Shown here piece after piece: positions 8,195 to 25,904 of a stretch of 64,000 nucleotides of DNA. The notes under the pieces were generated by a model. That model searched no databases and was not told the DNA's origin. It worked only from the letters and a program-made list of their open reading frames with translations. The translations under genes and the position numbers were made by a program. The stretch lies in the NCBI GenBank assembly GCA_963704905.1, contig CAVPHZ010000002.1, positions 428,905 through 492,904 of the forward strand, given 5' to 3'. Every line of letters begins with the position of its first letter. Positions within the stretch are counted from its first letter, which is position 1. This stretch comes from Candidatus Chisholmbacteria bacterium (lineage in GTDB: Bacteria > Patescibacteriota > Microgenomatia > UBA1400 > Chisholmbacteraceae).

Positions 8195-8200
8195 GACCTT

Positions 8201-9721
8201 TTAATAATTGACTCTGTATGCCTGGTGAGGGTTTTCTTTAAGCTGCTGTTTTCGAAAATCCATCGCCCGGCTGTACACATCCTCATATCGCATAGCTGCT
8301 TTATCCCAGGAAAAATCTTGCCGCATACAATTTCGAACCAGCTTTCTCCAGGAATTTGGTTGTTGGTAGACCATCAAAGCTCGAGTAATAGCCCCCATAA
8401 AAGCCAAGGAGTGATATTTTTCAAATGCAAATCCAGTTCCGCTCCCATTAAGTAGATCATACTCAGAAACACTGTCTGCCAGCCCTCCGGTTGCCCGAAC
8501 TACTGGAACCGCTCCATACCGCATGCCTTCAATCGCCACAATTCCTCCTGGTTCCCATCGGCTGGGAAGCAGCAATATATCAGTCCCAGCAAATATCTTC
8601 CGAGGTAAAGTAAAGTTTGGCATCAGATGAGTTCCAACCCGCTTCGGGTAGCGTTTCTCCAGCTTCTGGAAAAAATCTCGGTACTGGGGATCTCCTCCGC
8701 CCATAGCGATAAATTGGATATTGTACTCCTTGAGTACAAAAGGCAGCACATCTTGAACAAGATCAAGACCTTTTTGAGTATCTAATCGACCTATCATCGA
8801 GAAAAGAGGAATCTGTGGATCTACTTCTAAGTTAAACTCCTTTTGCAGGTCAAGCTTGTTCTCAACTCGCAGATCAAGTGTTGCCAATGAGAATGGTTTT
8901 TTGATAAGAGAATCAAATTTTGGATCAAATTCCTTATAGTCCAATCCGTTGAGAATGCCATAGGTCTTGGTCCGCACTTCTTTGAGCAGGTTATGCAATC
9001 CGGCTCCGAATTCCTTCGTCATGATCTCGCGGGCATGGGTTTCGGAAACCGTATTGATTGCGTCAGCATAGATAATCCCCCGCTTGAGGGAATTCTGCTT
9101 GTACAATCGCGGCGAAAACATGGGTGCCAATGGCCCCTTTCCATCATCAAAGTCTAAGTCCGATGCGTTACCAAAATCAAACACACCCTGGTGCAGATTG
9201 TGAATAGATAACAGTGTTGCAGTTTTTCGCAGAACTTTATCAGTGGCATAGCGGGTTCTCAGATCATTTACCAGATAAGAAGTATGCCAGTCATTGACAT
9301 GAATGATATCTGGAATCCAACCTTTTTTCCGCAGTGTTTCAATCGCCCCCCGGGATAACAATGCGAACCGGATCTGGTCATCATCGTAACCATATACATT
9401 ACTGCGCTTCTCAAAGTATTCTTGGTTCTCAAGAAAACAGACCTGCGGATCTTTCGCTCCCCCCTTATAGCTTTTTACATTACAAATCAGCTTTCGTGCC
9501 CCCTGCTTCTCTCCTGTTGGCACGGCCAATCCGGCTACATTCATCTTGAGTTTAAAGCCTTTTTCATCAAGTGTTCCGTACTTTGGCGTGAACATTCGCA
9601 CATCATGTCCAAGTTTGATCAGCGCTCTGGGGAGAAAGTACATTACCTGAGAAAGACCGCCAACAGATGAGAAAGGCGCAACTTCGGCAGCTGCGATGAA
9701 TATTTTCAATTTCTTCTCCAT
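8201..9721 (-). CDS. glgA: glycogen/starch synthase (GT5)
   Basis: The N-terminus KIFIAAAEVAPFSSVGGLSQVMYFLPRALIKLGHDVRMFTPKYG matches the GlgA ADP-glucose-binding signature. 506 aa. Confidence 0.8.
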   Translation of the reverse strand: MEKKLKIFIAAAEVAPFSSVGGLSQVMYFLPRALIKLGHDVRMFTPKYGTLDEKGFKLKMNVAGLAVPTGEKQGARKLICNVKSYKGGAKDPQVCFLENQEYFEKRSNVYGYDDDQIRFALLSRGAIETLRKKGWIPDIIHVNDWHTSYLVNDLRTRYATDKVLRKTATLLSIHNLHQGVFDFGNASDLDFDDGKGPLAPMFSPRLYKQNSLKRGIIYADAINTVSETHAREIMTKEFGAGLHNLLKEVRTKTYGILNGLDYKEFDPKFDSLIKKPFSLATLDLRVENKLDLQKEFNLEVDPQIPLFSMIGRLDTQKGLDLVQDVLPFVLKEYNIQFIAMGGGDPQYRDFFQKLEKRYPKRVGTHLMPNFTLPRKIFAGTDILLLPSRWEPGGIVAIEGMRYGAVPVVRATGGLADSVSEYDLLNGSGTGFAFEKYHSLAFMGAITRALMVYQQPNSWRKLVRNCMRQDFSWDKAAMRYEDVYSRAMDFRKQQLKENPHQAYRVNY

Positions 9722-9809: not shown

Positions 9810-12800
9810 TTACGGTGCCACTTCTCTCCAGGTGTACAGCGACCGTCTGAAGAAGGCGGGAAGCCGTGTGATAAATTCAGGGACATACGTAAATACCTCT
9901 CCGGGTGTATCATTATTCCTTACCCAGAGATCTCTCTGAAGGTCCACATTACCCCAGGCGACAACGGTACCATTCACCCGGAGCTGAGTGGTGACCGGCG
10001 GATCAACGGTCACGTCAAATCCGCAGTCATCAATATCTCCGCAGGTTCTGAACACCTGATCTGTCATGTACACTCCTTCAAGCAGGGTTACGGGTTCTTC
10101 AACTCTCATGCTCCCATTGGTAAGCAGTACCAGGAGCCCATTGCCAACCATGGTGATCTCTCCCCCACTCGGATTCAAGTAAAGGATATTGTCACTCGGG
10201 TCACCATCAGTAAAGTTAACAAAAATAGTTTTCACCTCATCAATATTCGCCCAGCTTCCAGAGAGAGTAATGTTCCCGGCCGGAACTTGAATCTCCCATA
10301 CATTATTAGGCGAAGCAGGAACCGGAGGCTGGTCAACAAGATCAGGTAATGGTGTAAGGGATTCCGCCTCATCTCTCCAGAAGTTGAATAAAAACTGGTC
10401 GCCCGCATACAGGCTCGTTGCCTCCCAATCACTCGAGGAAACAACACCAATGTCTCCACCGGCGCCGTGAGTCAGCACTCCGTCGCTCCCCGTTGTGCTC
10501 AGCATCAGCCAAGGAGTACAGGTTAGGGGCATGCAGGTTCCCGGTATGGTTACGCCGACATTGGCATCCGCATGCACATCCCCATCCACAACCTGCCACC
10601 AGGAAGCTTGAATATCAGAAACAAAGAAGTTCACATCTGCCTCAGGATTTGTAACTGAATATGAACCGCAGAACGACGGAGGATTCGACCCGTCAAATGG
10701 ACAGGTACACGCCCAACCGAGCGCTGGATCCGGATCGACAGATAAACTTAAGGTATACGGTCCACCTGCAGGTGCATCGATTGAATACTGCCCGTTCCCG
10801 GGATCAATGGTGTCATCAAAGTATCCCCCCGGATTGAGATTGACAATCGAATTCGGCCCAGGCTGGACACCGGGATATGGAGGGCTCGGTGCTTCGCTGC
10901 ATCGTCCGCCAATCAAGGTTGCATCACCGTAGTCGTCCTGTCGTACCTGCCCATCGATGGAACACTGGTCATAGAAGAAGCTGACACCAGCACTGGCTGG
11001 GCCGGTTCCGCACGCATTTGTCACAGCCACTCTCCAGGTATAATCAAGGTCAACATCGAGCGTATCTTGGATAGATGACGTAAGTCCTGCATCTGCAAGT
11101 TTCGTCAAACAATGGTCACCGGGATCAAATGGACCGGCACAGCTAAAGGTCGCATCAATAGGCCATTGGTCAACTTGGACTTGATATGAAGTCACTCCTG
11201 CAACTGAGCCGGGAACATTATTCCAAGTAAATGTCACATTGTTCGGGGAAGGTCCATAATCACAATTATCGGGAGGATTGAGCATAGTCGTAACTAAGTT
11301 TGTTGGGGCAACTGAAGGTGTATCCATCACCGTCATCGTCGTTCCTGCCAACGGACTCCAAGCGCAGGCATTGCGGTAGTGCACCCACCAGTTATAGCTG
11401 TTCCCAGCCGTAACCGGCAGATTAAATGAGGTTCCCCCGACATTATTGATGCATGTATCATCGGGATTTGGAGGCAACGGATTATTGCACTGTCCGTTCC
11501 ATCCATTCGCCGTCGTATTATCTACACGCAGCGCATACAGCTCATTACAATTCGCACCCGCATTCCATGAAAGAGTCACACTCCCCCCGGCATCACAGAT
11601 CAGACCTGATGGATTCAGGCCGGTAGGCGGATTCACAGGGGAATTTGAGGTGTTAAATGTCTGCCACGAAGAAAATGGGCCATTCCCGCAAGCACTCTCA
11701 GCTCTCACTCGAACTCCATAGTTGTAACATGACTGGACCGGGACAGTCTGATTACTAGCAGCCGGATAATAGCAATTGTCTCCCGGGTTCAATGCGCTGC
11801 AATTGTTCCAAGAGGAATACCCTCGGTCAACATTCAGGCGATAACTACTCGCTCCAGTCACATCATTCCAATCAACAGCAACGTTGACAGCATCACATAT
11901 CAGTCCTGAGGGAGTAAGATTTCCTGGAGCAGGAAATGTACTGCCGTCAATGACGTCAACTGTTAATAAATCATTCGCAGTGCAGTCGCTCCAGCTCGGA
12001 CCGCAGGTTTGAGTATTGGGAGGGTTCGGAGACCATTCACACCAGGGGTTCCCGGAGCATGCATGTCCGTTTACTGCACCTTGAAGCGGATCATAAGCAT
12101 TGCATGTAAGATAATACGACCCGGCAGTATTAAACGTTGTTGCTCCGCTCCCATCACAACCGTTGCCTGTACATCCTCCAGGGCTGGAAAAAATATTGGT
12201 CCAGGTCTGTAAACTCGTCGGGGATCTCCAAACCTCAGCTATACGGAGATTTGTATCAGCACCGTCTACTGCATAGGTTCCGCTCCCTCCCACACAGACA
12301 CTTGTCGGGCCGGATACAGAGCAGGTTGGGGATGCCGTATCAACAGTAGTCAATGCACCGCAAAAGGCGCTGTCACCAGAAGCATTCCGAAATTGTACGC
12401 ACACTTTTCTGTCACCATCTCCTCCTGATAGCGTCCAGTTGTATGGTGAGGTATAACCCACCCAGCCGGACCAGCCTGCCTCCCCGCCTGTTAGAGTGGA
12501 ACAAACTGTGGCTGAGGCGGTATTAAGAAACCGCATCTGTGTTGCAGATGTATTATTTAAAAATAGAGCAACTGTATTATTTCCGCTGTAGCACTGCGCA
12601 TCTCTGGGAGAACCGTTCCACTCGTTTAAGTCACACGTCCCAACTTTGATATCTTGAAATGATGTACACGACGGAACACCCCCAGCCACTGAATATGGAA
12701 TGCTGTCCTGCCGCGCACAGCAATCATCAGCCGTTCCGGTAACCAGCGAACAGATATGGTTATAGGAGCCTGAAGTACCTGGAGCCGTGCAATTAAACTG

Positions 12801-13466
12801 CGCTGAAGTTCCATTCCAGCCAGTCCAAGCGCATCCGCTGTAGGCACCGGTGGGCTGAATACAATCAATGACAGCACCATAATCACAGCTCACGGTGATG
12901 GCTCCGTTTGCTGAAGCAGGATCAGGATTAACGCTTGCGCCGAAAAATCCATGATTGTTGCATCCCCCTGGAGGAGAGGTAGGCGTCGGTCCCCCAGTAG
13001 GAGTGGGCGTCCCCGAACCTGGTCCGCAGCATCCTTGAGTGTAATCCTCCCAATCCTCATTACAAGTTTCATTAACAACATTAACCTGACACGTCATTCT
13101 CCGCCCTTCATAACGGCAAGTGCTACCGCCTTGATTACAAACTACATATGAATTCCACACACTGCAATATGGACGGGGGAAGGTTCCCCCACATACTCGA
13201 ATACAGGACCCCCCTCCGTATACTCCGCAATCATCATCGTCACGGCAAGTTTGACTTGTAGCTCCTTGACAAACATAAACTCGAGTACAGTCATTGCATG
13301 CATGCTGATTGATTTGCGTAGTCGGCCAGCATGCCCCGCCAGGGCAAGCAGGATGAGGCTCTATGAGTTGCGCATTGACGAAACTCGATGCAGCAAAAAG
13401 CGCAAATAATATAATGATCGATCCGGTGATGCTGATGATAAAATTTCTGAATGACTTCATTATCAT
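9810..13466 (-). CDS. giant Cys-rich secreted protein with FN3-like repeats (1218 aa), function unknown
   Basis: Signal peptide (IISITGSIIILFALFAASSFVNA); very high Cys content with CxxC/CxC patterns; repeated ~90-aa modules (PSGLICDA...W/SYRL/SYQV) resembling fibronectin-III/Ig-like folds; Pro/Thr linkers. Confidence 0.55.
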   Translation of the reverse strand: MIMKSFRNFIISITGSIIILFALFAASSFVNAQLIEPHPACPGGACWPTTQINQHACNDCTRVYVCQGATSQTCRDDDDCGVYGGGSCIRVCGGTFPRPYCSVWNSYVVCNQGGSTCRYEGRRMTCQVNVVNETCNEDWEDYTQGCCGPGSGTPTPTGGPTPTSPPGGCNNHGFFGASVNPDPASANGAITVSCDYGAVIDCIQPTGAYSGCAWTGWNGTSAQFNCTAPGTSGSYNHICSLVTGTADDCCARQDSIPYSVAGGVPSCTSFQDIKVGTCDLNEWNGSPRDAQCYSGNNTVALFLNNTSATQMRFLNTASATVCSTLTGGEAGWSGWVGYTSPYNWTLSGGDGDRKVCVQFRNASGDSAFCGALTTVDTASPTCSVSGPTSVCVGGSGTYAVDGADTNLRIAEVWRSPTSLQTWTNIFSSPGGCTGNGCDGSGATTFNTAGSYYLTCNAYDPLQGAVNGHACSGNPWCEWSPNPPNTQTCGPSWSDCTANDLLTVDVIDGSTFPAPGNLTPSGLICDAVNVAVDWNDVTGASSYRLNVDRGYSSWNNCSALNPGDNCYYPAASNQTVPVQSCYNYGVRVRAESACGNGPFSSWQTFNTSNSPVNPPTGLNPSGLICDAGGSVTLSWNAGANCNELYALRVDNTTANGWNGQCNNPLPPNPDDTCINNVGGTSFNLPVTAGNSYNWWVHYRNACAWSPLAGTTMTVMDTPSVAPTNLVTTMLNPPDNCDYGPSPNNVTFTWNNVPGSVAGVTSYQVQVDQWPIDATFSCAGPFDPGDHCLTKLADAGLTSSIQDTLDVDLDYTWRVAVTNACGTGPASAGVSFFYDQCSIDGQVRQDDYGDATLIGGRCSEAPSPPYPGVQPGPNSIVNLNPGGYFDDTIDPGNGQYSIDAPAGGPYTLSLSVDPDPALGWACTCPFDGSNPPSFCGSYSVTNPEADVNFFVSDIQASWWQVVDGDVHADANVGVTIPGTCMPLTCTPWLMLSTTGSDGVLTHGAGGDIGVVSSSDWEATSLYAGDQFLFNFWRDEAESLTPLPDLVDQPPVPASPNNVWEIQVPAGNITLSGSWANIDEVKTIFVNFTDGDPSDNILYLNPSGGEITMVGNGLLVLLTNGSMRVEEPVTLLEGVYMTDQVFRTCGDIDDCGFDVTVDPPVTTQLRVNGTVVAWGNVDLQRDLWVRNNDTPGEVFTYVPEFITRLPAFFRRSLYTWREVAP

Positions 13467-14086
13467 CGTATGATTCCGATACGGTCAGGGATAAGGATAA
13501 AATCATCAGGAATTCTTCCCTCTTCCGATTGACCTTTAAATTCTAAATGTAAACCGTTCAGTGTCGCGTCAATCAACCGGTTATACTCAGCCTCAAACTC
13601 CTGTTGACTGGATAACTCGATTTCAATCCGCAACAACACATCTTCCCCTTTCTGCAGTACATCCACAGCTTCGCTCGTGGGAGTAGCACTCCAGGATGAT
13701 TCTCGGTAAAAAGATCCATCATATTTTCCTAGAAAAACGTTACCTGCTAAACTTCCGGCAAGAACCGGAATACTGCGCTCCTTTGAATCTCCCTTGATGA
13801 CAAAACTCCCGGCAAGCAGTCCATCATCCCTGCGTTCTAATCCATTAGGAAACGATCCCTCAAGTTCATAAGCTACCGATTGAAGATCTAGGCTGATTTG
13901 TTTGCGGATGACATCGCCGAACTCGTATGGCGGAGGGGTGATTTGAAGTGATGGTGGAACTTGATCTTGTGGCTGGCTCTGCTGTTCTGTCTTCAAATAT
14001 AGATAACCAATAAGAACAACAAGTAAAACGGCAAAAAACACAGTGACTGAGTATGGCAGTACTTTCTTCATAAAGAAGGCCTGCAT
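13463..14086 (-). CDS. N-terminally membrane-anchored protein (207 aa), co-operonic with the giant protein
   Basis: TM helix VLPYSVTVFFAVLLVVLIGYLYL. Its stop overlaps the start of the downstream 1218-aa gene by 4 nt (ATGA). Confidence 0.45.
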   Translation of the reverse strand: MQAFFMKKVLPYSVTVFFAVLLVVLIGYLYLKTEQQSQPQDQVPPSLQITPPPYEFGDVIRKQISLDLQSVAYELEGSFPNGLERRDDGLLAGSFVIKGDSKERSIPVLAGSLAGNVFLGKYDGSFYRESSWSATPTSEAVDVLQKGEDVLLRIEIELSSQQEFEAEYNRLIDATLNGLHLEFKGQSEEGRIPDDFILIPDRIGIIR

Positions 14087-14162: not shown

Positions 14163-16667
14163 CTACTTGCGATACCGATCAGGAAAGTAAATCTGATCCC
14201 AATCTAGAAAATACCCCTTAAAATCAACGAGTTTACCATTTTCGATTGAATTAAAAACTTGCCTTCTTTGATTAACTATATCTGAGGGAAGATCAGGGTT
14301 GTCAATTTGCAGTCCCACAAAAAGCTGTTGATTTCTCATGTCCGGATTCCAAAACCAGTCGATGACATCTTGATTGGTAATGATTGTTCTGTTTCCAATC
14401 GGCTGAGAGATATCATTATCTTTAAAAAATCCGATTCCATGCGAACTTCCGGGTTGATCGGGCATGATCAGTGAGAAAAAGTATGAATCACCTCCGGGAG
14501 TTACCGTTTCACAGAGGACTTTGATGGTATTCTCATATGCCATACGATCCCATCCAGCAACATCCCTGACAATACATGATAGCGTTCGAATTCGAATAAA
14601 GCCGGTTTTACCACTGAGCCCACTTGTAGTTTCATGATCAACATCATACTCCGGCAATCTTCCCAGCGGTGCAGGAACCATCTCTCCGTCTTCGTTCTGT
14701 GTAAACATGGGTTTTATTTGAGCCTCGTCTATAGGAACAAAAGACGAAGCAAGGAAAACATCACAATCATTGACTAATACACCTGAAATCTTAGATGTAA
14801 ACTCTTCGCATACCTTCGCCGCTTTGGGAACAAAAGACTTCAGTTCCCCTGCACCGGTATCATATTCATACACCGGCCGGTATCTGCCTTCTTGAAAGAC
14901 CAGCGTCCTGCCGTTGATTTTCTCAACCCGGTCAGCTTGTTCTTCTGGTGTCTGCCAGGTTCCCATATCTCGATTCCAGAAAGACCATCTGCCGTCTTCA
15001 CCCTCCTCAACAGCCTGCGCCTCCACCCACTGCCCTGGCTCTCCACCAGGTCCGTCAGGGTCAGCAAATCTTGAAATAGGGTTTCCATCCTTATCAAGCC
15101 CCACAAATCCCGCTCCGGGAACATCGACCAGAGTCACTACTCCATCAGGCAAGTCAAGTTGCGGAGGGGCTTCACCCGCAAATACCCATACAGTACTTGG
15201 TTGGTCAACAACTCCGTCAGGATTCAAAATTCCCACAGCTTGCCCATCTTCAACGCCTACAATCGTCCACTCACATCCGTCCACTTTGACTGGAACAAGC
15301 TGGTCAAATATTCCCTGTGCAGACAGTGTCCATACGGTTGCTTGCGTATCCCGAGGGACTCGATCGGGTAAAACAGACAAACTGGCATCACCACCGGGAG
15401 CCAGCCACAGCCAAGTGTTACCCTCTTTTAAACTTAAGAAATAACCTCCATAGGCACTGGCATGCATCTCAATCAGAGCCGTATTCTCAGCATTTGGATT
15501 GGCTTCTGCCTGACCTTCGACAAACACCTGTGCCCCATCAACTTCAGTTACAATTGTATTCACAGCCTCTTGGGCATACTCAGGAACCACCACAGCTCTT
15601 CCGCTTCGTGCAGCATGTATTCCCATTGCCGTGACTGAGGTTACTACTTCTTGATTGATCGCCTGGGACATATCGCCTGGTTCAACGCCAAAAACACTCT
15701 GGAACCCTTCTTTTGACTTAACCAGCACACCAACTTCGGGATTAACGCTGGAATCCATAACAAAATCCGGGGAAAAGATCACCGCATTGGAATCAATCCC
15801 GCAAAACAGCGGATCCTCTGGAGAAGGCGTTGGAGCTATAGTCGCTGTTTCTGACGGATCTGGTTTAGCTGTCTCCGATGAGACAAGAGGAGATGCTGGA
15901 GTCGGGCTCAAAGCAGGGATTGTTGGAGGAATATCTATCTGCTCAATCCCCGCACATGCAGCAGCAGATAATGCCATAGTTGCATACACACCTACCTTCA
16001 AAACTGTCTTGCCATACGCTTTCCGGCTTTCAGCCCTGGCAATTGCTTGCTGATGATCGAATATCGGTTGCAGGTCAACCATCCTGCGAGATCGCTCCCC
16101 GTTTACCCGCTGATCAGGGAGAGACAAAAACCGTTCCCGATACAACAGAACACCCTCAGGTTCTTTGGCAGTTCGCTGACTATCCCATGCGGTGCGGGAA
16201 ACCGCCAGCCAATAGCCAGCCTCTTCTGCTGAAACGCCGAATTGTTGCTCAAAATCATCCCGAGTAAACTTGACCTGACTTCCATTTGGAGCGATATACC
16301 CTTCTGGTTTGCTCAATGCGGAAAGCCCGGCTGCAAACCAAAGTGCCTGCTCCAAACCGGAAGTAGGCATATCCTCATGTTGTCCATTGTGCTGACCTCG
16401 CGTAGCCTGTCTGCTTCGCACATCAGGAACCGCACCGGCAACCACCACGTTCAAACCGTCTTCACTCGGACCCACAAAAAACAGAGACTGTCTTGCCAGC
16501 TGATGCAAAAGGTCTGAGCTGGTTCGCAGTCCTCCGTATTCTCCATCAATAAGTATAGTACCTTGTTGGTTCACCCACCGACCGGCAGACTCAGCGGGAT
16601 AAGAAACCCTAGATTTGGGACGGATGGTCTCTCCGCCTCCGTAAAATGTTTGTTGATTAAAAGCCAT
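14163..16667 (-). CDS. paralog-array membrane protein 1 (834 aa); unique N-terminal domain, TM, S/P/T linker, shared extracellular modules
   Basis: Single internal TM (VGVYATMALSAAACAGI) after a ~220-aa N-terminal domain, then a Pro/Ser/Thr-rich linker. The C-terminal ~330 aa is near-identical to paralogs 2 and 3 (ADPDGPGGEPGQWVEAQAVEEGEDGRWSFWNRDMGTWQTPEEQ...MRNQQ). Confidence 0.6.
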   Translation of the reverse strand: MAFNQQTFYGGGETIRPKSRVSYPAESAGRWVNQQGTILIDGEYGGLRTSSDLLHQLARQSLFFVGPSEDGLNVVVAGAVPDVRSRQATRGQHNGQHEDMPTSGLEQALWFAAGLSALSKPEGYIAPNGSQVKFTRDDFEQQFGVSAEEAGYWLAVSRTAWDSQRTAKEPEGVLLYRERFLSLPDQRVNGERSRRMVDLQPIFDHQQAIARAESRKAYGKTVLKVGVYATMALSAAACAGIEQIDIPPTIPALSPTPASPLVSSETAKPDPSETATIAPTPSPEDPLFCGIDSNAVIFSPDFVMDSSVNPEVGVLVKSKEGFQSVFGVEPGDMSQAINQEVVTSVTAMGIHAARSGRAVVVPEYAQEAVNTIVTEVDGAQVFVEGQAEANPNAENTALIEMHASAYGGYFLSLKEGNTWLWLAPGGDASLSVLPDRVPRDTQATVWTLSAQGIFDQLVPVKVDGCEWTIVGVEDGQAVGILNPDGVVDQPSTVWVFAGEAPPQLDLPDGVVTLVDVPGAGFVGLDKDGNPISRFADPDGPGGEPGQWVEAQAVEEGEDGRWSFWNRDMGTWQTPEEQADRVEKINGRTLVFQEGRYRPVYEYDTGAGELKSFVPKAAKVCEEFTSKISGVLVNDCDVFLASSFVPIDEAQIKPMFTQNEDGEMVPAPLGRLPEYDVDHETTSGLSGKTGFIRIRTLSCIVRDVAGWDRMAYENTIKVLCETVTPGGDSYFFSLIMPDQPGSSHGIGFFKDNDISQPIGNRTIITNQDVIDWFWNPDMRNQQLFVGLQIDNPDLPSDIVNQRRQVFNSIENGKLVDFKGYFLDWDQIYFPDRYRK
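14335..15075. repeat. near-identical coding block shared with 17175-17910 and, partly, 19320-19900
   Basis: Visual nucleotide alignment shows long runs of identity with a few SNPs. Antisense spurious ORFs with identical translations recur in the ORF track (MLTLTDLVESQGSGWRRRLL... three times). Confidence 0.7.
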
Positions 16668-17005
16668 ACAAATAAACGCTGCGAACAGCGCCCAATCGAC
16701 AGCATGTTCTCACTCATGCTATCGAGTCTCAATATGTAACCAATGCGTAATATGTATAAACAGCATATCAATCCGCATCAGTTAATTTCGCTATTAAACA
16801 GTGGCAGTCTTGGGGCAAGAGGCAGTCGTGGCAGCTAGGCAGAGCTTGTGGCAGGTACACAAAAAAATGAGCTTATGAGATACAGCATCCATCAATAATT
16901 ATTTTCGAAAATAATTATAGCATAATAGATCTTAATACAACAATTTAATCTAGAGCTCTAAGCCTGCTTTCTCAAGCTTTCAATAATTTACAAGAAGAAA
17001 AACAA

Positions 17006-18703
17006 TCACTTTCGATACTGATCAGGCAGGAAAAGAACGTCCCAATCGAGCATGTAAGCTGCATCGTCCTTGAGCTGACCTTGATCAATAGCATTAAATA
17101 CTTTCCAGTTATGAGCAATAAGATGATCAGGAAGGAATGTATTCTCAATCTGAAGGTTAACAAAAATTTGTTGGTTTCTCATGTCCGGATTCCAAAACCA
17201 GTCGATGACATCTTGATTGGTAATGATTGTTCTGTTTCCAATCGGCTGAGAGATATCATTATCTTTAAAAAATCCGATTCCATGCGAACTTCCGGGTTGA
17301 TCGGGCATGATCAGTGAGAAAAAGTATGAATCACCGCCGGGAGTTACCGTTTCACAGAGGACTGTGATGGTATTCTCATATGCCATATAATCCCATCCAG
17401 CAACATCCCTGACAATACATGATAGCGTTCGACTTCGAACAAAGCCTGTTTGTTTTATCTCGCTCAAGTCAAAATCGATGTCATATTCAGGCAATCTTCC
17501 CAGTGGTGCAGGAACCATCTCTCCGTCTTCGTTCTGTGTAAACATGGGTTTTATTTGAGCCTCGTCTATAGGAACAAAAGACGAAGCAAGGAAAACATCA
17601 CAGTCATTGACTAATACACCTGAAATCTTATCTGTAAACTCTTCGCATACCTTCGCCGCTTTGGGAACAAATGGTGTTAGCTCACTAGTCTCAGTATCAT
17701 ATTCATACACCGGCCGGTATCTGCCTTCTTGAAAAACCAGCGTCCTGCCGTTGATTTTCTCAACCCGGTCAGCTTGTTCTTCTGGTGTCTGCCAGGTTCC
17801 CATATCTCGATTCCAGAAAGACCATCTGCCGTCTTCACCCTCCTCAACAGCCTGCGCCTCCACCCACTGCCCTGGCTCTCCACCAGGTCCGTCAGGGTCA
17901 GCAAATCTCATCATTGGGTTGCCATTGGTATCAATCGCCACGTACCCATGGTCTATGGTGAGGATCGCAGTTGCTCCTTCGGGAGTCGGACCATACTCGG
18001 GAGTGACTGTCGGCAACGGCATGAGTGTGGACGTACTCCTGGGTGTGCTGGTAAACCGCTGCACAGGGGTAGTGGTCAATGTGGGAACAACAGCCGGTTT
18101 CGTTGCAATCTCCTCAGGTGTGAGTGCTTGTTGACAAGCCTGCAAAAACGCTGTGAAGGATGCGGTCAAAGGCACCAGCCACTTCCCCCCTCCGGATCCG
18201 TTTCCATTGTCAGGAGTAGGTGATGATCCACTGTCGGGAGAGTGAGTTGGGCCTTCGACAATCTGCTGGACACCTCCCGGTCCTCCGCTTGCTCCGCCGG
18301 CAAGCAGTGAGACAATCAGCAGGGTATTCATCGTCTTGACTGCCCAGCCGGGTAGCTCAATCAGTTCCCCGTTATCTTCTAGCGGAATGCCGGTTGCAGC
18401 ATCACGGATGACCAGCGCATCCCATTCCTGCGGTGAGACTCCGATATACTTGTCATAGGGGGTTCTTTGAGGCAGGTGAAATGGGTGTCCGTTCCCCAGC
18501 CGTTCCTTTGTCCTGGAAGGAAGGGATCCGAAACCCTGATGAGAAAGTGCGTCAGCAAAAGCCATAATTGGTGAATTGGCTGGAATTATACCAGAGTAAC
18601 AATCAGAATGATGAAAACTTTTCAAAAAGAGCACCGCTTCCGCAATACTGCCAGGAAAAACGAAACCAGAGCCATCTGGTGTTTTGTCCTCCAAGGGTGT
18701 CAA
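17006..18703 (-). CDS. paralog-array membrane protein 2 (565 aa)
   Basis: N-terminal ~130-aa domain (MTPLEDKTPDGSGF...), TM (TLLIVSLLAGGASGG), S/P/T/G linker, then the shared C-terminal modules. Large nucleotide blocks are identical to paralogs 1, 3 and 4. Confidence 0.6.
   Translation of the reverse strand: MTPLEDKTPDGSGFVFPGSIAEAVLFLKSFHHSDCYSGIIPANSPIMAFADALSHQGFGSLPSRTKERLGNGHPFHLPQRTPYDKYIGVSPQEWDALVIRDAATGIPLEDNGELIELPGWAVKTMNTLLIVSLLAGGASGGPGGVQQIVEGPTHSPDSGSSPTPDNGNGSGGGKWLVPLTASFTAFLQACQQALTPEEIATKPAVVPTLTTTPVQRFTSTPRSTSTLMPLPTVTPEYGPTPEGATAILTIDHGYVAIDTNGNPMMRFADPDGPGGEPGQWVEAQAVEEGEDGRWSFWNRDMGTWQTPEEQADRVEKINGRTLVFQEGRYRPVYEYDTETSELTPFVPKAAKVCEEFTDKISGVLVNDCDVFLASSFVPIDEAQIKPMFTQNEDGEMVPAPLGRLPEYDIDFDLSEIKQTGFVRSRTLSCIVRDVAGWDYMAYENTITVLCETVTPGGDSYFFSLIMPDQPGSSHGIGFFKDNDISQPIGNRTIITNQDVIDWFWNPDMRNQQIFVNLQIENTFLPDHLIAHNWKVFNAIDQGQLKDDAAYMLDWDVLFLPDQYRK
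17690..18598. repeat. ~0.9-kb direct repeat, near-identical to 19683-20591
   Basis: Covers the N-terminal domain, TM and linker coding region of paralogs 2 and 3. Only isolated mismatches were seen (e.g. gatccActg vs gatccGctg). Confidence 0.75.
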
Positions 18704-18958
18704 AACAACCGATAAAACCTGTCTGGAACGGGTCGGTTCATGAATGATGGAAATCGCAGGGTTAAATCGATGATCATATCAATCGCCCTGCTCACCATCA
18801 GCAGTGCTACATTATTTGTTTGAAAACAAAAAGTCTGTCCCCTGACTCTCCAAGTGGAACTCAAGTGAGGTAAAAAACTGATAGTAGTAAAAAGCGGAAA
18901 GAAGCACCATGCGTTATACCGCTGCATCATTCAATCTGGAATACTCGTGAACCCGTTG
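18045..18958. repeat. ~0.9-kb direct repeat, near-identical to 21568-22476 (5' coding part plus ~255 bp upstream region of paralogs 2 and 4)
   Basis: Identical 76-aa spurious ORFs at 18700..18930 and 22227..22457. The nucleotide runs match with about one SNP (ccaaggg vs ccagggg). Confidence 0.75.
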
Positions 18959-18989
18959 AGCTTTCAATAATATACAAGAAGAAAAACAA

Positions 18990-20780
18990 CTACTTCTTGA
19001 TTCTCGCAGGCAAATAAATAACATCCCATGTCATAGGGTACTTACCGAGAATGTCTTCCATTTTGCCAGCTTCGATCGCTTGAAAAACCTTCCAGTTATG
19101 CTCGATCACATCTGGCAGTGATAAAAGCCCTGGTGTCTCCATCTGTAGTGTCACCATAATCTGTTGATTATTCATCGCCGGATCCAAAAACCAATTGATC
19201 ATATCCTGATACGTAATCGAGCTTCTCCTACCTATTGGTCGCCCAACATCATCATCCTCGAAAAACTGAATCCCATGTGCTTGACCTGGTTGATCCGCCA
19301 TGATCAATGGAAAAAAGAAAGAATCACCGCCGGGAGTTACCGTTTCACAGAGGACTTTGATGGTATTCTCATATGCAAAGTATGGCCAAGAGGCTATACC
19401 CCGAACTACGCACGAAAATCCTTTGTCACGAATATAACCTGTGTCACCTGTCACAATACTCTTCGACTCAAAATTCATATCATAATCAGCAAACCTCCCA
19501 AGCGTAGCAGGAACCATCTCTCCGTCTTCGTTCTGTGTAAACATGGGTTTTATTTGAGCCTCGTCTATAGGAACAAAAGACGAAGCAGGGAAAACATCAC
19601 AGTCATTAACCACCTTGCCCTCAAAGGTAAACTCTTGGCATACCTTCGCCGCTTTGGGAACAAAAGACTTCAGTTCCCCTGCACCGGTATCATATTCATA
19701 CACCGGCCGGTATCTGCCTTCTTGAAAGACCAGCGTCCTGCCGTTGATTTTCTCAACCCGGTCAGCTTGTTCTTCTGGTGTCTGCCAGGTTCCCATATCT
19801 CGATTCCAGAAAGACCATCTGCCGTCTTCACCCTCCTCAACAGCCTGCGCCTCCACCCACTGCCCTGGCTCTCCACCAGGTCCGTCAGGGTCAGCAAATC
19901 TCATCATTGGGTTGCCATTGGTATCAATCGCCACGTACCCATGGTCTATGGTGAGGATCGCAGTTGCTCCTTCGGGAGTCGGACCATACTCGGGAGTGAC
20001 TGTCGGCAACGGCATGAGTGTGGACGTACTCCTGGGTGTGCTGGTAAACCGCTGCACAGGGGTAGTGGTCAATGTGGGAACAACAGCCGGTTTCGTTGCA
20101 ATCTCCTCAGGTGTGAGTGCTTGTTGACAAGCCTGCAAAAACGCTGTGAAGGATGCGGTCAAAGGCACCAGCCACTTCCCCCCTCCGGATCCGTTTCCAT
20201 TGTCAGGAGTAGGTGATGATCCGCTGTCGGGAGAGTGAGTTGGGCCTTCGACAATCTGCTGGACACCTCCCGGTCCTCCGCTTGCTCCGCCGGCAAGCAG
20301 TGAGACAATCAGCAGGGTATTCATCGTCTTGACTGCCCAGCCGGGTAGCTCAATCAGTTCCCCGTTATCTTCTAGCGGAATGCCGGTTGCAGCATCACGG
20401 ATGACCAGCGCATCCCATTCCTGCGGTGAGACTCCGATATACTTGTCATAGGGGGTTCTTTGAGGCAGGTGAAATGGGTGTCCGTTCCCCAGCCGTTCCT
20501 TTGTCCTGGAAGGAAGGGATCCGAAACCCTGATGAGAAAGTGCGTCAGCAAAAGCCATAATTGGTGAATTGGCTGGAATTATACCAGAGTACTGGTCAGA
20601 GGAAATCACTACCGCAAATTGAAAAATCCAGACTATTTCGGTACTTGACGATAATCTTGAAAAAAACGGCGTTCTTTGAAACAGTAACCATACAAATCTA
20701 TTGATTTGCATCCATCCAGGCTTGCAGTGCATCTTCGGGGACAAATATCGATTCTGTATGAAAAACATTAGGTGTATCAA
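18990..20780 (-). CDS. paralog-array membrane protein 3; N-terminus diverged/truncated, start uncertain
   Basis: Same architecture as paralog 2 from YSGIIPANSPIMAFADAL onward. Upstream of nt ~20591 the sequence departs from the other copies, and the longest ORF start (20780) overlaps the 3' end of paralog 4; alternative Met starts lie at 20732 and 20711. Confidence 0.5.
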   Translation of the reverse strand: MIHLMFFIQNRYLSPKMHCKPGWMQINRFVWLLFQRTPFFSRLSSSTEIVWIFQFAVVISSDQYSGIIPANSPIMAFADALSHQGFGSLPSRTKERLGNGHPFHLPQRTPYDKYIGVSPQEWDALVIRDAATGIPLEDNGELIELPGWAVKTMNTLLIVSLLAGGASGGPGGVQQIVEGPTHSPDSGSSPTPDNGNGSGGGKWLVPLTASFTAFLQACQQALTPEEIATKPAVVPTLTTTPVQRFTSTPRSTSTLMPLPTVTPEYGPTPEGATAILTIDHGYVAIDTNGNPMMRFADPDGPGGEPGQWVEAQAVEEGEDGRWSFWNRDMGTWQTPEEQADRVEKINGRTLVFQEGRYRPVYEYDTGAGELKSFVPKAAKVCQEFTFEGKVVNDCDVFPASSFVPIDEAQIKPMFTQNEDGEMVPATLGRFADYDMNFESKSIVTGDTGYIRDKGFSCVVRGIASWPYFAYENTIKVLCETVTPGGDSFFFPLIMADQPGQAHGIQFFEDDDVGRPIGRRSSITYQDMINWFLDPAMNNQQIMVTLQMETPGLLSLPDVIEHNWKVFQAIEAGKMEDILGKYPMTWDVIYLPARIKK

Positions 20781-22230
20781 TACTCATTGGAACTCCCTGC
20801 TCCAAAACTTCGAGAAACGGATGAAAATAGTCCATACTGGGATCAACTTCTGCCCTCTGATTATCCTCATCAGACCAGCGCAATGTGATGATAATCTGCT
20901 GATTTCTCATAAACTCTGACTTGAAAAACTCTATCATCTCTAGCGAATTTAATGGAGTGAATTGAGCATTCTCTATAGGAATGGCAGCATGTGGGGAGAG
21001 ATTTTCCTTGATGCTCTCTCTCGGTACAGAAAATATCCACCAGAGAGGGCTTGAGTTTTCTATGGAGTTGAACGCTTCAGGATCACTATCCTCAAGTGAC
21101 CAGTCAAGTTTGGAGTCTGCTATAGTAACAAGAGCTGATTGCAGTCCGCCATCCAAACGCAGCAGACATTCACTCTTGATAGTGTTTGGGCCATCTAAAT
21201 ATTCCCATGGTACCCACTCTCCTGTCACAACACAGGCAACTGATTTGTATACACTTACAATACCTTGGTACTCAATAACCTTGTCCAATTCAGGGATGTG
21301 CCCGTCAGCAAGCGTGACTGACTGCCCGTTTCGCATCATCTGCAGAGTGCTGATAGTGGCGTCATCAAGCGGTTCGCGGAAATCTGGTAAGCCGGCACAA
21401 TCGTCAAGATAGCCAAGTACTGCGTCGTTTCGTTGACACACCCGCTTCACTCCAACCGCATTGGGAACCTCACTGGTCATCACAGATACAGGAGTATTCT
21501 TGGGTGTTGGCTCAAGAGTAGGCTTAGGGAACAGTGTGGTTATTGGAGTAAGCCTGGGAGTAATCCGTGGTGTGCTGGTAAACCGCTGCACAGGGGTAGT
21601 GGTCAATGTGGGAACAACAGCCGGTTTCGTTGCAATCTCCTCAGGTGTGAGTGCTTGTTGACAAGCCTGCAAAAACGCTGTGAAGGATGCGGTCAAAGGC
21701 ACCAGCCACTTCCCCCCTCCGGATCCGTTTCCATTGTCAGGAGTAGGTGATGATCCACTGTCGGGAGAGTGAGTTGGGCCTTCGACAATCTGCTGGACAC
21801 CTCCCGGTCCTCCGCTTGCTCCGCCGGCAAGCAGTGAGACAATCAGCAGGGTATTCATCGTCTTGACTGCCCAGCCGGGTAGCTCAATCAGTTCCCCGTT
21901 ATCTTCTAGCGGAATGCCGGTTGCAGCATCACGGATGACCAGCGCATCCCATTCCTGCGGTGAGACTCCGATATACTTGTCATAGGGGGTTCTTTGAGGC
22001 AGGTGAAATGGGTGTCCGTTCCCCAGCCGTTCCTTTGTCCTGGAAGGAAGGGATCCGAAACCCTGATGAGAAAGTGCGTCAGCAAAAGCCATAATTGGTG
22101 AATTGGCTGGAATTATACCAGAGTAACAATCAGAATGATGAAAACTTTTCAAAAAGAGCACCGCTTCCGCAATACTGCCAGGAAAAACGAAACCAGAGCC
22201 ATCTGGTGTTTTGTCCTCCAGGGGTGTCAA
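20698..22230 (-). CDS. paralog-array membrane protein 4 (510 aa) with divergent C-terminal domain
   Basis: N-terminal 215 aa are identical to paralog 2, including TM and linker. The C-terminal domain is diverged but keeps the MRNQQI motif. Its upstream region is a copy of that of paralog 2. Confidence 0.6.
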   Translation of the reverse strand: MTPLEDKTPDGSGFVFPGSIAEAVLFLKSFHHSDCYSGIIPANSPIMAFADALSHQGFGSLPSRTKERLGNGHPFHLPQRTPYDKYIGVSPQEWDALVIRDAATGIPLEDNGELIELPGWAVKTMNTLLIVSLLAGGASGGPGGVQQIVEGPTHSPDSGSSPTPDNGNGSGGGKWLVPLTASFTAFLQACQQALTPEEIATKPAVVPTLTTTPVQRFTSTPRITPRLTPITTLFPKPTLEPTPKNTPVSVMTSEVPNAVGVKRVCQRNDAVLGYLDDCAGLPDFREPLDDATISTLQMMRNGQSVTLADGHIPELDKVIEYQGIVSVYKSVACVVTGEWVPWEYLDGPNTIKSECLLRLDGGLQSALVTIADSKLDWSLEDSDPEAFNSIENSSPLWWIFSVPRESIKENLSPHAAIPIENAQFTPLNSLEMIEFFKSEFMRNQQIIITLRWSDEDNQRAEVDPSMDYFHPFLEVLEQGVPMSIDTPNVFHTESIFVPEDALQAWMDANQ

Positions 22231-22751
22231 AACAACCGATAAAACCTGTCTGGAACGGGTCGGTTCATGAATGATGGAAATCGCAGGGTTAAATCGATGA
22301 TCATATCAATCGCCCTGCTCACCATCAGCAGTGCTACATTATTTGTTTGAAAACAAAAAGTCTGTCCCCTGACTCTCCAAGTGGAACTCAAGTGAGGTAA
22401 AAAACTGATAGTAGTAAAAAGCGGAAAGAAGCACCATGCGTTATACCGCTGCATCATTCAATCTGGAATACTCGTGAACCCGTTGAATCAGCCAAATGAA
22501 GTTATCCTGCGGTAGTGTCTGGCTCTTCTTTGGAGGAGTCTTGCTCCCCAGCCAAAAAAGAAACTCCTTGACGAAGATGTCATCAACCTTCCAACCGGTC
22601 TCTCGCTTGAAGAGTCTAACCAAGTCTGCCTTTGATTGCCATGCTAAAAAGGACGCGGCTCTTCCCATGTGCAGTCTATGTACCACAGAAACTTGACCGT
22701 TTGCAATGCATACTTGATATGAACAGATGACCATAATGGTAAAATCGAAAA

Positions 22752-25106: not shown

Positions 25107-25904
25107 TCAGTGCAAAGTCAACCGGGAACGGAAGATTAGAAACCCAAAACGAAGAAGATCTAACTGACGCTTCAATCTCCATGGCTGCCTGACTAACCGA
25201 TACATCCAATCCAGTCCTAGCCTGGTCATAAATTGAGGAGGCTTGAGGCTTGGATCAACGATCATATCAATCGCCCCGCCCACAACCATGCCAACCTTGA
25301 TATCCAGCTGTTTGAGATTGTCATAAAGCCACTTCTCCTGCCATGGAGCCCCATAGCCGACAAATAAAAGATCCGGCTTAAATCGATTAATCTGGCGAAC
25401 TATCCTCTCATTCTCCTCTTCAGAGTAATCGCGAATATCCCAATGCCCCTCAATTCCTTTTATTTGAGCCATAATTCTTAAAGGTTCCGAACCTTTAAGA
25501 TCATACTGTAATTTTTTTGCTGCTTCCTGAGCAACACCCACTTTTCCCCCAACCAACATCACTCTCCAACCATTCTCTTTAGCACTGTCTATCAAGCTAT
25601 TCATGATTTCTTCGCCCGTCACTCTACCTAAAATGACAGGACCGGACCCTGTCAGTAAACGGCTCGCCCACACTAAGCCCACGCCATCGCAGAGTGCTAA
25701 CGATGCCTCATTCAAAATCGTGCGGAAACGCTCGTCCTTTTGCGCCATCATCACCTGTTCAGGATTCGGAGTCACTATCATCCGTTTCGCCTTTTGTTCG
25801 ATAAATTGCTCAATCGTCGCTAAAACTTCCCGCCTGGTAATCGCGGAGATATGGACACCGAGAATGGAAATAGATGGTTGAATCGAATGGTTTAATGTTG
25901 ACAT
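25107..25904 (-). CDS. WecB/TagA/CpsF-family glycosyltransferase (GT26)
   Basis: ILGVHISAIT...RMIVTPNPEQVMMAQKDERF...LALCDGVGLVWASRLL...FVGYGAPWQEKWLYDN...RLGLDWMYRLVRQPWRL matches the GT26 family signature. Confidence 0.7.
   Translation of the reverse strand: MSTLNHSIQPSISILGVHISAITRREVLATIEQFIEQKAKRMIVTPNPEQVMMAQKDERFRTILNEASLALCDGVGLVWASRLLTGSGPVILGRVTGEEIMNSLIDSAKENGWRVMLVGGKVGVAQEAAKKLQYDLKGSEPLRIMAQIKGIEGHWDIRDYSEEENERIVRQINRFKPDLLFVGYGAPWQEKWLYDNLKQLDIKVGMVVGGAIDMIVDPSLKPPQFMTRLGLDWMYRLVRQPWRLKRQLDLLRFGFLIFRSRLTLH

What the first reader, a model, noticed from the sequence alone, without database searches (positions are those of the whole stretch)
14163..22480. Tandem array of four mosaic paralogous single-pass membrane proteins with near-identical nucleotide cassettes
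Four consecutive minus-strand genes (834, 565, ~590 and 510 aa) share one architecture: a cytoplasmic N-terminal domain, one TM helix, a Ser/Pro/Thr/Gly linker, and a ~330-aa extracellular region that ends in related but diversified C-terminal tails after an MRNQQ motif. At nucleotide level they are mosaics of blocks that are virtually identical: 14335-15075 ~ 17175-17910 ~ 19320-19900; 17690-18598 ~ 19683-20591; 18045-18958 ~ 21568-22476. Paralog 1 has a completely different N-terminal cytoplasmic domain. Paralog 4 has a different extracellular C-terminal domain spliced onto the same N-terminal half as paralog 2. Identity over hundreds of bp among diverged paralogs argues for recent or ongoing gene conversion or cassette exchange, as in surface-antigen or contingency-locus variation. 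It is not old duplication. No family name could be attached to any module, so this may be an undescribed variable surface or host-interaction system. NDCDVF...SSHGIGFF might hint at a Cys/His hydrolase core, but that is speculative. Caveat: near-identical repeats of this size are also where assemblies collapse, so copy number and junctions need read-level confirmation.
Basis: seen in the sequence. Interest (0 to 1): 0.8.

Follow-up and report, generated by a model that had tools for sequence, protein, structure and literature searches.

The report
Mosaic array of orphan envelope proteins
Four neighbouring genes for an undescribed membrane-anchored surface protein family in a small, CPR-like bacterial genome are old duplicates that have recently overwritten parts of one another, a known way of shuffling surface proteins seen here in a family with no name, no known fold and no known function.

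Summary
Four minus-strand ORFs (834, 565, 596 and 510 aa) form a tandem array. Stretches of 100% nucleotide identity up to 918 bp alternate sharply with stretches of 46-75% identity. Column shuffles never reproduce these run lengths (0/2000).

Gene conversion is well supported, but the duplications are old. Diverged blocks have saturated synonymous change (pS 0.5-1.0) with pN/pS below 1, while identical blocks have pS = 0.

I found no programmed-variation machinery:
- no recombinase or reverse transcriptase among the 41 larger window ORFs scanned with Pfam
- no inverted repeats and no repeat tracts
- no A-biased mismatches
- no room for immunity genes between the paralogs

The Cys/His hydrolase idea fails because the His is not conserved.

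A decayed wecG 3' fragment lies across the annotated starts of paralogs 2 and 4.

Function is inferred only.

The parts
14163..16667 (-). Paralog 1 (834 aa), the ancestral-type member. It has cytoplasmic N-terminal domain A (aa 1-220), a hydrophobic segment ending in the lipobox-like LSAAAC (aa ~221-238), a Pro/Thr linker, extracellular module X (aa ~290-500), a beta-hairpin module and the C-terminal alpha/beta domain (aa 502-834).
   Evidence: ORF. Each module has its own distant homologues. It is the paralog adjacent to the conserved partner genes.
17006..18703 (-). Paralog 2 (565 aa from the TTG at 18703; the alternative start is the ATG at 18565, 'MAFADAL'). It has a short N-terminal region B, weak hydrophobic segments at aa 120-139 and 176-192 (LQAC), a Pro/Thr linker and the core at aa 235-565.
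   Evidence: The AlphaFold model of aa 235-565 has pLDDT 84.4 and pTM 0.79.
18990..20780 (-). Paralog 3 (596-aa ORF). Homology to paralog 2 starts only at 20591. The 63 codons upstream of that point score as non-coding, so the likely start is the ATG at 20558. It has no upstream region of its own and lies 138 nt after the stop of paralog 4.
   Evidence: codon score -0.07, against a 5% quantile of 0.036 for real genes.
20698..22230 (-). Paralog 4 (510 aa; the alternative start is the ATG at 22092). Its 5' half is identical to paralog 2. It has no beta-hairpin module, and its C-terminal domain is a divergent (25% identical) version of the shared one.
21569..22486 (-). Conversion or duplication tract shared with 18042-18959 (paralog 2). 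It spans 918 bp with perfect runs of 652 and 265 bp. It covers 256 bp of upstream DNA plus codons 1 to about 220 and ends inside the Pro/Thr linker.
19729..20591 (-). Conversion tract shared with 17736-18598 (paralog 2). It spans 863 bp with one mismatch.
14808..15071 (-). Perfect 264-bp tract shared with paralog 3 (19638-19901). The sub-tract 14899-15071 is also identical in paralog 2 (17736-17908). Further paralog 1/2 tracts are 14332-14492 = 17175-17335 and 14668-14765 = 17505-17602.
22152..22328 (-). Decayed 3' fragment of a wecG/tagA-type glycosyltransferase gene. It covers 59 codons, is 42% identical to the intact gene at 25107-25904 and has an in-frame stop. It overlaps the annotated TTG start of paralog 4 in another reading frame.
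18625..18801 (-). Second copy of the wecG 3' remnant. It overlaps the annotated TTG start of paralog 2.
13463..14086 (-). Conserved partner 1, a 207-aa bitopic protein with a strong N-terminal TM segment. Homologues lie directly downstream of family genes in L003 and L001.
   Evidence: (E 1e-14 to 1e-21).
9810..13466 (-). Conserved partner 2, a 1218-aa secreted Cys-rich protein with a signal peptide, a CxxC-rich head, a Pro/Thr linker and a weak fn3 signal. Its start overlaps the stop of partner 1. Related proteins follow the family gene in L003, L008, L010 and L001 (truncated there).
25107..25904 (-). Intact WecG/TagA glycosyltransferase gene. It is the ancestral upstream neighbour of the family gene, and that adjacency is still seen in L003 and L004.
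16895..16930 (-). Promoter-like extended -10 element (TGCTATAAT) followed by a perfect 24-bp palindrome (ATAATTATTTTCGAAAATAATTAT), about 230-260 nt upstream of the paralog 1 start.
   Evidence: from sequence inspection only.

Best explanation
What it is. This is a lineage-specific, modular cell-envelope protein family in a small-genome, CPR/Patescibacteria-like bacterium.

Architecture. Each protein is held in the membrane by a hydrophobic segment that usually ends in a lipobox-like Cys. In short relatives this segment is a plain N-terminal Tat or lipoprotein signal. In long relatives a ~200-aa cytoplasmic domain precedes it. A Pro/Thr-rich stalk then carries disulfide-stabilised extracytoplasmic modules. 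The shared core is a beta-hairpin module followed by an alpha/beta domain with no recognisable fold relative.

Gene context. The gene belongs to a conserved cluster: wecG, family gene, small bitopic protein, giant Cys-rich secreted protein. I infer that the three act together at the cell surface in attachment or wall association.

History in this genome. The ancestral gene is paralog 1. It was joined long ago by duplicates that carried a piece of wecG with them (paralogs 2-4). Ordinary homologous recombination between the same-orientation copies then overwrote patches (gene conversion) and swapped whole halves at the low-complexity Pro/Thr linker. The result is proteins that combine a few alternative loops and C-terminal tails on a constant scaffold.

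Shown: the mosaic, its age structure, the modularity, the synteny and the extracytoplasmic location.
Inferred: the surface or adhesive role and any benefit of the shuffling.
For: Mosaic and conversion:
- Sliding-window identity shows sharp switches between 100% and 46-75%.
- pS is 0 in identical blocks and 0.5-1.0 in diverged blocks, where pN/pS is below 1.
- Run-length permutation gives 0/2000.
- The three paralogs group differently in adjacent segments.

Family and modularity:
- Exhaustive HMMER search found 17 hits, and these split into three independent modules.
- All-against-all BLASTP shows the modules recombined in different proteins.

Location outside the cell:
- P0010 carries a Tat signal.
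- The pattern 'hydrophobic segment, [AGS][AGS]C, Pro/Thr linker' occurs in 9 members by motif scan, with P0010 carrying an LPGC variant the scan missed. It sits at the N-terminus in P0006, P0010 and P0017.
- Cysteines are present or absent in pairs.

Synteny:
- w207 homologues lie downstream of P0009 and P0006, and a w1218-like protein follows.
- The same three-gene layout occurs in L008, although its small middle protein shows no detectable similarity to w207.
- One relative lies inside a type IV pilus cluster.
- L009 shares MreB, WecG and M16 peptidase with the window.
- WecG C-termini lie directly upstream in L003 and L004, and wecG remnants lie upstream of paralogs 2 and 4.

Other support:
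- L005 has at least three tandem paralogs.
- The core model has pLDDT 84.4 and no structural neighbour.
Against: - No experiment or annotation ties any module to a function.
- The hydrophobic anchors of paralogs 2-4 are weak, and there are two candidate segments, so their topology is not settled.
- Start codons of paralogs 2-4 are ambiguous.
- Only one genome carries this array. No strain variants were found in any collection, so ongoing exchange in a population is not shown.
- Perfect repeats of 0.5-0.9 kb could owe some of their identity to assembly or polishing.
- The pilus association rests on one locus.
Confidence: 0.6

Rival explanations
1. This is a programmed antigenic or phase-variation locus. 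One or two copies are expressed (paralogs 2 and 4, which have upstream regions), the others act as donor cassettes (paralog 3 has no promoter), and frequent directed gene conversion changes the displayed surface, as with pilE/pilS, vlsE or msp2.
For: Paralog 3 lacks the upstream region and the first 35 codons. Conversion tracts are recent, with pS = 0. The variable segments are concentrated in a few loops and the C-terminal tail.
Against: All four copies keep complete, intact reading frames under purifying selection. If the ATG at 20558 is the start, paralog 3 is a complete gene that is probably co-transcribed with paralog 4. There are no extra truncated cassettes elsewhere in the window. There are no inverted repeats, recombinase, SSR tracts or tandem repeats. 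No population data show switching.
Confidence: 0.12
2. The near-identical blocks are wholly or partly an assembly or polishing artefact. Paralogous or strain-variant reads were collapsed or mis-polished, which homogenised copies that are really more different or fewer in number.
For: Perfect repeats of 0.5-0.9 kb in tandem are where assemblers fail. The sequence comes from a metagenome-type 508,777-bp contig with no second copy of the organism in any database.
Against: The copies are not fully identical: 4 mismatches in 927 bp, and 1 in 863 bp. Every junction preserves the reading frame. Tract ends fall at biologically sensible places, such as the Pro/Thr linker and 31 nt after the stop codons. 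The wecG remnant is duplicated together with its flanks. Tandem family arrays also exist in an independent assembly, L005.
Confidence: 0.1
3. The proteins are transmembrane receptors or membrane-tethered regulators. The extracellular modules sense ligands, and the cytoplasmic N-terminal domain signals, possibly through a helix-turn-helix-like motif.
For: The N-in topology with a ~200-aa conserved cytoplasmic domain A is seen in several members. There is a weak match of p1 aa 118-152 to the CRP HTH region (E 0.038). A recurring 'DFxxxFGVSxEEA' motif is also present in region B of paralogs 2-4.
Against: The match is far below threshold. The putative recognition helix is acidic (inspection of the alignment). 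Many members have no cytoplasmic domain at all and are plain lipoprotein or Tat precursors. Profile searches against PDB sequences find nothing. No partner regulator is conserved nearby.
Confidence: 0.1
4. This is a polymorphic toxin or contact-dependent inhibition type locus. A conserved motif (MRNQQ) marks the start of swappable C-terminal toxin tips, and the extra copies are orphan modules.
For: The conserved MRNQQ/NQQI motif is followed by the most diverged ~55 residues, and the family forms tandem arrays.
Against: The tails are homologous and alignable across all members, and they form integral secondary-structure elements of the modelled domain. No ORF of more than 66 aa lies in the sampled paralog 2-paralog 1 gap, and the other gaps are 138-286 nt, so there is no room for immunity genes. 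There are no toxin, Rhs, TPS or PADLOC hits.
Confidence: 0.02

Closest known systems
Mycoplasma variable surface lipoprotein loci (vsp, vlp, vpma, vsa)
   Same: These also occur in small-genome, host-dependent bacteria. They are tandem arrays of paralogous surface-protein genes whose 5' ends, including upstream DNA and the membrane-anchor region, are near-identical while the 3' ends differ. Both have lipobox-type anchors and recombination among copies. (Knowledge of these loci is mine and was not tested here.)
   Different: There is no sequence or fold relation. The mycoplasma loci use site-specific recombinases with inversions, or promoter homopolymer slippage, and their products carry in-frame tandem repeats. 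None of these features is present here. In this array the lipobox-like Cys is internal, or missing from the first hydrophobic segment, in paralogs 1-4.
Gene conversion among full-length outer-membrane adhesin paralogs (Helicobacter pylori babA/babB/sabA; Neisseria opa)
   Same: Non-reciprocal homologous recombination between complete, expressed paralogs produces chimeric surface proteins without dedicated machinery. This is the mechanism I favour here.
   Different: Those paralogs are dispersed rather than tandem, they are beta-barrel outer-membrane proteins of diderms, and they often add phase variation through repeat tracts. This family is unrelated and sits in a monoderm-like CPR context.
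Silent-cassette antigenic variation (pilE/pilS, vlsE, msp2)
   Same: Segmental gene conversion gives mosaics made of identical and diverged blocks.
   Different: Those systems have one expression site plus many promoterless, truncated cassettes. Here there are four intact ORFs and no further cassettes in 64 kb.
Choline-binding / cell-wall-binding beta-hairpin repeat domains (LytA C-terminal domain, glucansucrase glucan-binding repeats)
   Same: The first ~125 residues of the modelled core are a run of short beta-hairpins. The only recurring weak Foldseek matches other than beta-propellers are LytA and CbpL choline-binding domains and a dextransucrase. The conserved position next to wecG/tagA would fit wall-polymer binding.
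   Different: The matches are not significant (E at or above 0.02, TM below 0.25). There is no Pfam CW_binding hit. This is a lead only.

Membership tests
Mycoplasma-type variable surface lipoprotein locus | N-terminal lipoprotein signal peptide with a lipobox Cys | tested here: inconclusive
   A lipobox-like [AGS][AGS]C follows a hydrophobic segment in p1 (LSAAAC, aa 235) and in p2-4 (LQAC, aa 187). It is internal rather than N-terminal. It is N-terminal in the homologues P0006, P0010 and P0017.
Mycoplasma-type variable surface lipoprotein locus | Adjacent site-specific recombinase with inverted recombination sites, or a homopolymer-tract promoter switch | tested here: not met
   There are no inverted repeats in 12-25 kb. 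There is no recombinase among the 41 larger window ORFs scanned with Pfam. Only two A7 tracts occur, which is not an enrichment.
Mycoplasma-type variable surface lipoprotein locus | In-frame tandem repeats in the variable C-terminal region | tested here: not met
   Tandem Repeats Finder found nothing in 13-23 kb.
Silent-cassette gene-conversion antigenic variation (pilE/pilS, vlsE, msp2) | A single expression site plus promoterless, truncated donor cassettes | tested here: not met
   There are four intact ORFs. Paralog 3 lacks its own upstream region but keeps a full CDS from the ATG at 20558. tblastn finds no other fragments in the window.
Polymorphic toxin / CDI systems | Unrelated C-terminal toxin domains after a demarcation motif, each followed by a cognate immunity gene | tested here: not met
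   The tails are homologous and part of the fold. No ORF of more than 66 aa lies in the sampled gap, and the other gaps are too short for an immunity gene. There are no toxin or PADLOC hits.
Diversity-generating retroelement target | A reverse transcriptase nearby and TR/VR pairs that differ only at template adenines | tested here: not met
   No RT was found among the 41 ORFs scanned with Pfam. Mismatches are spread over all four bases.
   The His of SSHG is replaced in paralog 4 and in all distant homologues. The cysteines are lost in pairs, as expected of disulfides.
Any curated protein family (Pfam, NCBIfam, PHROGs, PADLOC) or solved structure | A significant profile or fold match | tested here: not met

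The most novel reading that the evidence does not exclude
The array may be the diversification arm of an undescribed attachment system in an ultrasmall, host-dependent bacterium. Stalked surface modules of a new fold would work with the conserved small bitopic protein and the giant Cys-rich protein to set which partner cell or surface is bound. Domain shuffling and gene conversion would supply new specificities, making this a functional counterpart of mycoplasma variable lipoproteins. The long forms may also be unusual lipoprotein precursors: an internal lipobox would be processed, releasing a lipid-anchored ectodomain from a ~200-aa cytoplasmic pro-domain.
Probability: 0.2. Interest if true: 0.75.

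Novelty: new variant of a known kind. Interest (0 to 1): 0.5.

Why it matters
How CPR/Patescibacteria recognise and hold on to their hosts is largely unknown beyond type IV pili. A conserved three-gene envelope cluster would be a concrete candidate for that interface if its first member is modular, sits outside the cell, has a new fold and is actively reshuffled in at least one genome.

The locus is also a clean natural example of gene-conversion age structure. Old paralogs carry patches with zero synonymous divergence. A fossil wecG fragment records how the array was built, and it shows how longest-ORF gene calling can extend a start codon into a pseudogene.

If the array is only a neutral by-product of tandem duplication, the finding is just an orphan family with an unusual repeat structure.

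Tried and rejected
Searches that returned nothing:
- Single-sequence AlphaFold of paralog 2 failed (pLDDT 34).
- Word-indexed protein searches returned only this genome's own proteins, even when I used a 10-sequence profile.
- Both genome-contig scans and both metagenome-contig scans found nothing. One viral scan also found nothing.
- Exact look-ups of window proteins found no record, so the organism could not be named.

Misleading or unusable results:
- P0005, a 44-aa protein listed as the representative of paralog 4's cluster, is unrelated. It is a database artefact and cost one look-up.
- A global MAFFT alignment of full-length or fragment sets scrambled the modules, so a whole-protein alignment for structure prediction was not possible.
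- hhalign of N-terminal domain A against region B found only the hydrophobic segment.
- Literature searches found no description of this family or of such arrays in CPR.

Hypotheses rejected:
- DGR
- polymorphic toxin
- Cys/His hydrolase
- slipped-strand contingency locus
- defence system or phage gene
- horizontal transfer signalled by composition: GC is only slightly raised, as expected for Pro/Thr/Gly-rich coding
Full report
**Observation**

The region holds four consecutive minus-strand ORFs:
- 14163-16667 (834 aa, 'p1')
- 17006-18703 (565 aa, 'p2')
- 18990-20780 (596 aa, 'p3')
- 20698-22230 (510 aa, 'p4')

Self-BLASTN gives four matches:
- 18033-18959 ~ 21560-22486 at 99.6%
- 16975-18598 ~ 18959-20591 at 86.6%
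- 14299-15104 ~ 17142-17941 at 91.4%
- 14302-15104 ~ 19138-19934 at 81.7%

At 60-nt resolution, identity switches abruptly between 100% and 46-75%. Perfect runs reach these lengths:
- p2/p4: 652 and 265 bp
- p2/p3: 494 and 368 bp
- p1/p3: 264 bp
- p1/p2: 173, 161 and 98 bp

For the p1/p2, p2/p3 and p1/p3 pairs, the longest run in 2000 column shuffles was 45-79 bp, and none reached the observed length.

**Age structure**

I computed codon-wise Nei-Gojobori counts in 20-codon blocks. They are bimodal. Identical blocks have pS = 0. Diverged blocks have pS 0.45-1.0 with pN 0.13-0.42, so pN/pS is below 1.

The copies are therefore old and under purifying selection, and the identical patches are recent overwriting. 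Adjacent segments support different groupings: p1 = p3 but not p2 at 14808-14899, and p1 = p2 but not p3 just downstream. This is the signature of gene conversion among three copies.

The p2/p4 tract ends inside the low-complexity Pro/Thr linker (18042/21569). There, a whole 5' half, including 256 bp of upstream DNA, is joined to a very different 3' half.

I see no sign of positive selection.

**No dedicated variation machinery**

- There are no inverted repeats in 12-25 kb.
- There are no tandem repeats.
- Only two A7 tracts occur, against 30 homopolymers of that size in the whole window.
- Mismatches are spread over all four bases, so this is not a DGR.
- No recombinase, integrase or reverse transcriptase was found among the 41 larger window ORFs I scanned with Pfam.
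- tblastn finds no further family fragments in the window.
- No ORF of more than 66 aa lies in the sampled p2-p1 gap, and the other gaps are 138-286 nt, so there is no room for immunity genes.

**The family**

Pfam, NCBIfam, PHROGs and PADLOC give nothing. An exhaustive HMMER search of 1.84 billion representatives with p1 found only 17 proteins. They fall into three independent sets:
- N-terminal domain A (p1 aa 19-283): P0008, P0009, P0013, P0014, P0015, P0016
- Module X (aa 226-496): P0006, P0010, P0018, P0019
- The shared core (aa 505-834): P0007, P0011, P0012, P0017, P0020, and the C-terminus of P0006

All-against-all BLASTP shows that these modules, and others, are combined differently in different proteins. 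Mosaicism by domain shuffling is therefore a property of the whole family, not only of this array.

**Location of the core**

P0010 has a Tat signal. A motif scan finds the pattern 'basic residues, hydrophobic segment, [AGS][AGS]C, Pro/Thr linker' in nine members, and P0010 has an LPGC variant that the scan missed. The pattern sits at the N-terminus in P0006, P0010 and P0017, as in ordinary lipoprotein precursors. In the long forms it sits at residue ~190-250, after a cytoplasmic domain.

In the core alignment the cysteines are present or absent in pairs, as expected of disulfides. The core and module X are therefore extracytoplasmic.

**Structure**

With a 10-sequence alignment, AlphaFold models p2 aa 235-565 at pLDDT 84.4 and pTM 0.79. 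The model is a ~125-residue run of beta-hairpins followed by an alpha/beta domain.

- Foldseek against PDB gives nothing significant (best E 0.012, TM below 0.25). The weak recurring hits are beta-propellers and LytA-type choline-binding repeats.
- BFVD gives nothing.
- AFDB was unavailable.

The fold is either new or too diverged to place with these libraries.

**Genomic context**

The window looks like a CPR/Patescibacteria-type chromosome. It carries GH57 enzymes, glycogen synthase, DUF4012, MreB, pilins, a VirD4-like ATPase, ComEC/ComEA, aminoacyl-tRNA synthetases and ATP synthase. The organism could not be named.

Downstream of p1 lie a 207-aa bitopic protein (13463-14086) and a 1218-aa secreted Cys-rich protein (9810-13466). 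The same order is found elsewhere:
- After P0009 in L003 there is a w207 homologue (E 2e-21), then a protein related to the w1218 head (E 4e-10).
- After P0006 in L001 there is a w207 homologue (E 5e-14), then a truncated w1218-like head.
- After P0019 in L008 there is a 173-aa protein with no detectable similarity to w207, then an 899-aa protein 42% identical to w1218 over 121 residues.
- In L010, P0016 and a w1218-like protein lie inside a type IV pilus cluster, with five pilins upstream and PilM downstream.
- L009 shares MreB, WecG and an M16 peptidase with the window.
- L005 holds at least three tandem family paralogs at ~52-76% identity.

**A fossil that dates the array**

The C-terminal fragments of the genes upstream of P0009 and P0013 (L003, L004) are WecG/TagA glycosyltransferases, 65-71% identical to the window's WecG (25107-25904). 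They also match 22155-22328 and 18628-18801.

A direct search shows a 59-codon wecG 3' remnant at those two places. It is 42% identical to the intact gene and has an in-frame stop. It overlaps the annotated TTG starts of p4 and p2 in another reading frame.

The ancestral arrangement was therefore wecG followed by the family gene. The duplication unit carried the end of wecG with it.

The remnant's stop lies ~57 nt before an ATG (18565 / 22092 / 20558) that opens 'MAFADAL'. Compare p1 MAFNQQ, P0009 MAFMDN and P0020 MAFQTE. I consider this the likelier true start, though codon statistics for codons 1-46 are inconclusive (0.086, within the range of real genes). The 63 extra N-terminal codons of p3 score as non-coding (-0.07).

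With that start, p3 is a complete gene 138 nt behind p4 and probably co-transcribed with it.

p1 has its own promoter-like TGCTATAAT followed by a perfect 24-bp palindrome.

**Interpretation**

The best-supported reading is a lineage-specific envelope-protein cluster. Its first gene has been amplified, and its copies exchange segments by ordinary homologous recombination.

The surface or attachment role is inferred from four things: topology, disulfides, Pro/Thr stalks, and the conserved partners and neighbours (a wall-polymer glycosyltransferase, and pili in one case).

Rivals, in order of weight:
1. A programmed expression-site and cassette system
2. Partial assembly or polishing artefact
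3. Transmembrane signalling proteins
4. Polymorphic toxins (effectively excluded)

**Novelty**

The mechanism, gene conversion among tandem surface-protein paralogs, is well known from mycoplasmas, Neisseria, Helicobacter, Borrelia and Anaplasma. That comparison rests on my own knowledge. Literature searches found no report of it for CPR or for this family.

What is new here:
- the protein family itself
- its apparently unmatched fold
- its internal lipobox architecture
- its conserved three-gene cluster

I rate it a new variant of a known kind, of moderate interest. It is limited by resting on a single genome and by having no functional evidence.

Noticed in passing
window 22152-22328 and 18625-18801 (- strand): There are two copies of a decayed wecG/tagA 3' fragment (59 codons, in-frame stop). 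They lie across the annotated TTG starts of paralogs 4 and 2 in a different frame. The annotated N-termini may therefore be over-extended, and the likelier start is the ATG at 22092 / 18565.
   Followed up: yes
window 16895-16930 and 16673-16694 (- strand): The gap between paralogs 2 and 1 holds an extended -10-like TGCTATAAT followed immediately by a perfect 24-bp palindrome (ATAATTATTTTCGAAAATAATTAT). A GC-rich hairpin ends 6 nt before the ATG of paralog 1. Together these may be an independent, regulated promoter and 5' leader for paralog 1.
   Followed up: partly
L001 9602-9956 and 12864-13197: In the locus of homologue P0006, a ~335-bp stretch that encodes a ~100-aa ORF is repeated 3262 bp downstream (93% DNA identity, 97% protein identity). 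The second copy cuts off the w1218-like gene after its Cys-rich head. This looks like a partial tandem duplication of the whole unit.
   Followed up: partly
L010 629-11618: Homologue P0016 and a 767-aa Cys-rich protein related to w1218 lie inside a type IV pilus gene cluster, with five N_methyl pilins upstream and PilM downstream. In the window, a pilin gene (34143-34781) and a gene related to L010 9191-10021 (34778-36181) lie 12 kb from the array.
   Followed up: partly
L005 1-2900 (and L006): A groundwater contig carries at least three tandem family paralogs with a period of ~1240 bp and 52% protein identity. The start of the third copy is visible at ~2720. Array formation therefore recurs in the family.
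   Followed up: partly
window 37347-41165: A VirD4/TraG-type coupling ATPase gene (38988-41165) lies beside tRNA-Pro (37347-37419) and tRNA-Arg (38832-38904). ComEC (54104-55381) and ComEA (55525-56154) are also present. These are DNA-uptake and transfer genes typical of CPR genomes.
   Followed up: no
window 5674-9721 (- strand): Two adjacent GH57-family paralogs (5674-7005 and 7007-8194) follow a glycogen/starch synthase gene (8201-9721), forming a compact glycogen cluster directly beside the giant Cys-rich protein gene.
   Followed up: no
window 17729-18223, 19164-20216, 14914-15444 (+ strand): Long antisense ORFs of up to 350 aa run opposite the paralogs and are repeated along with them. 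They are most likely artefacts of the Pro/Thr/Gly-rich coding strand and not genes.
   Followed up: no
protein cluster of paralog 4 (P0004/P0005): In the 90%-identity protein collection, paralog 4 is filed under a 44-aa representative (P0005, on a JGI contig of 1223 bp) that has no similarity to it. This is a clustering artefact, and it hid paralog 4 from the homology search.
   Followed up: yes
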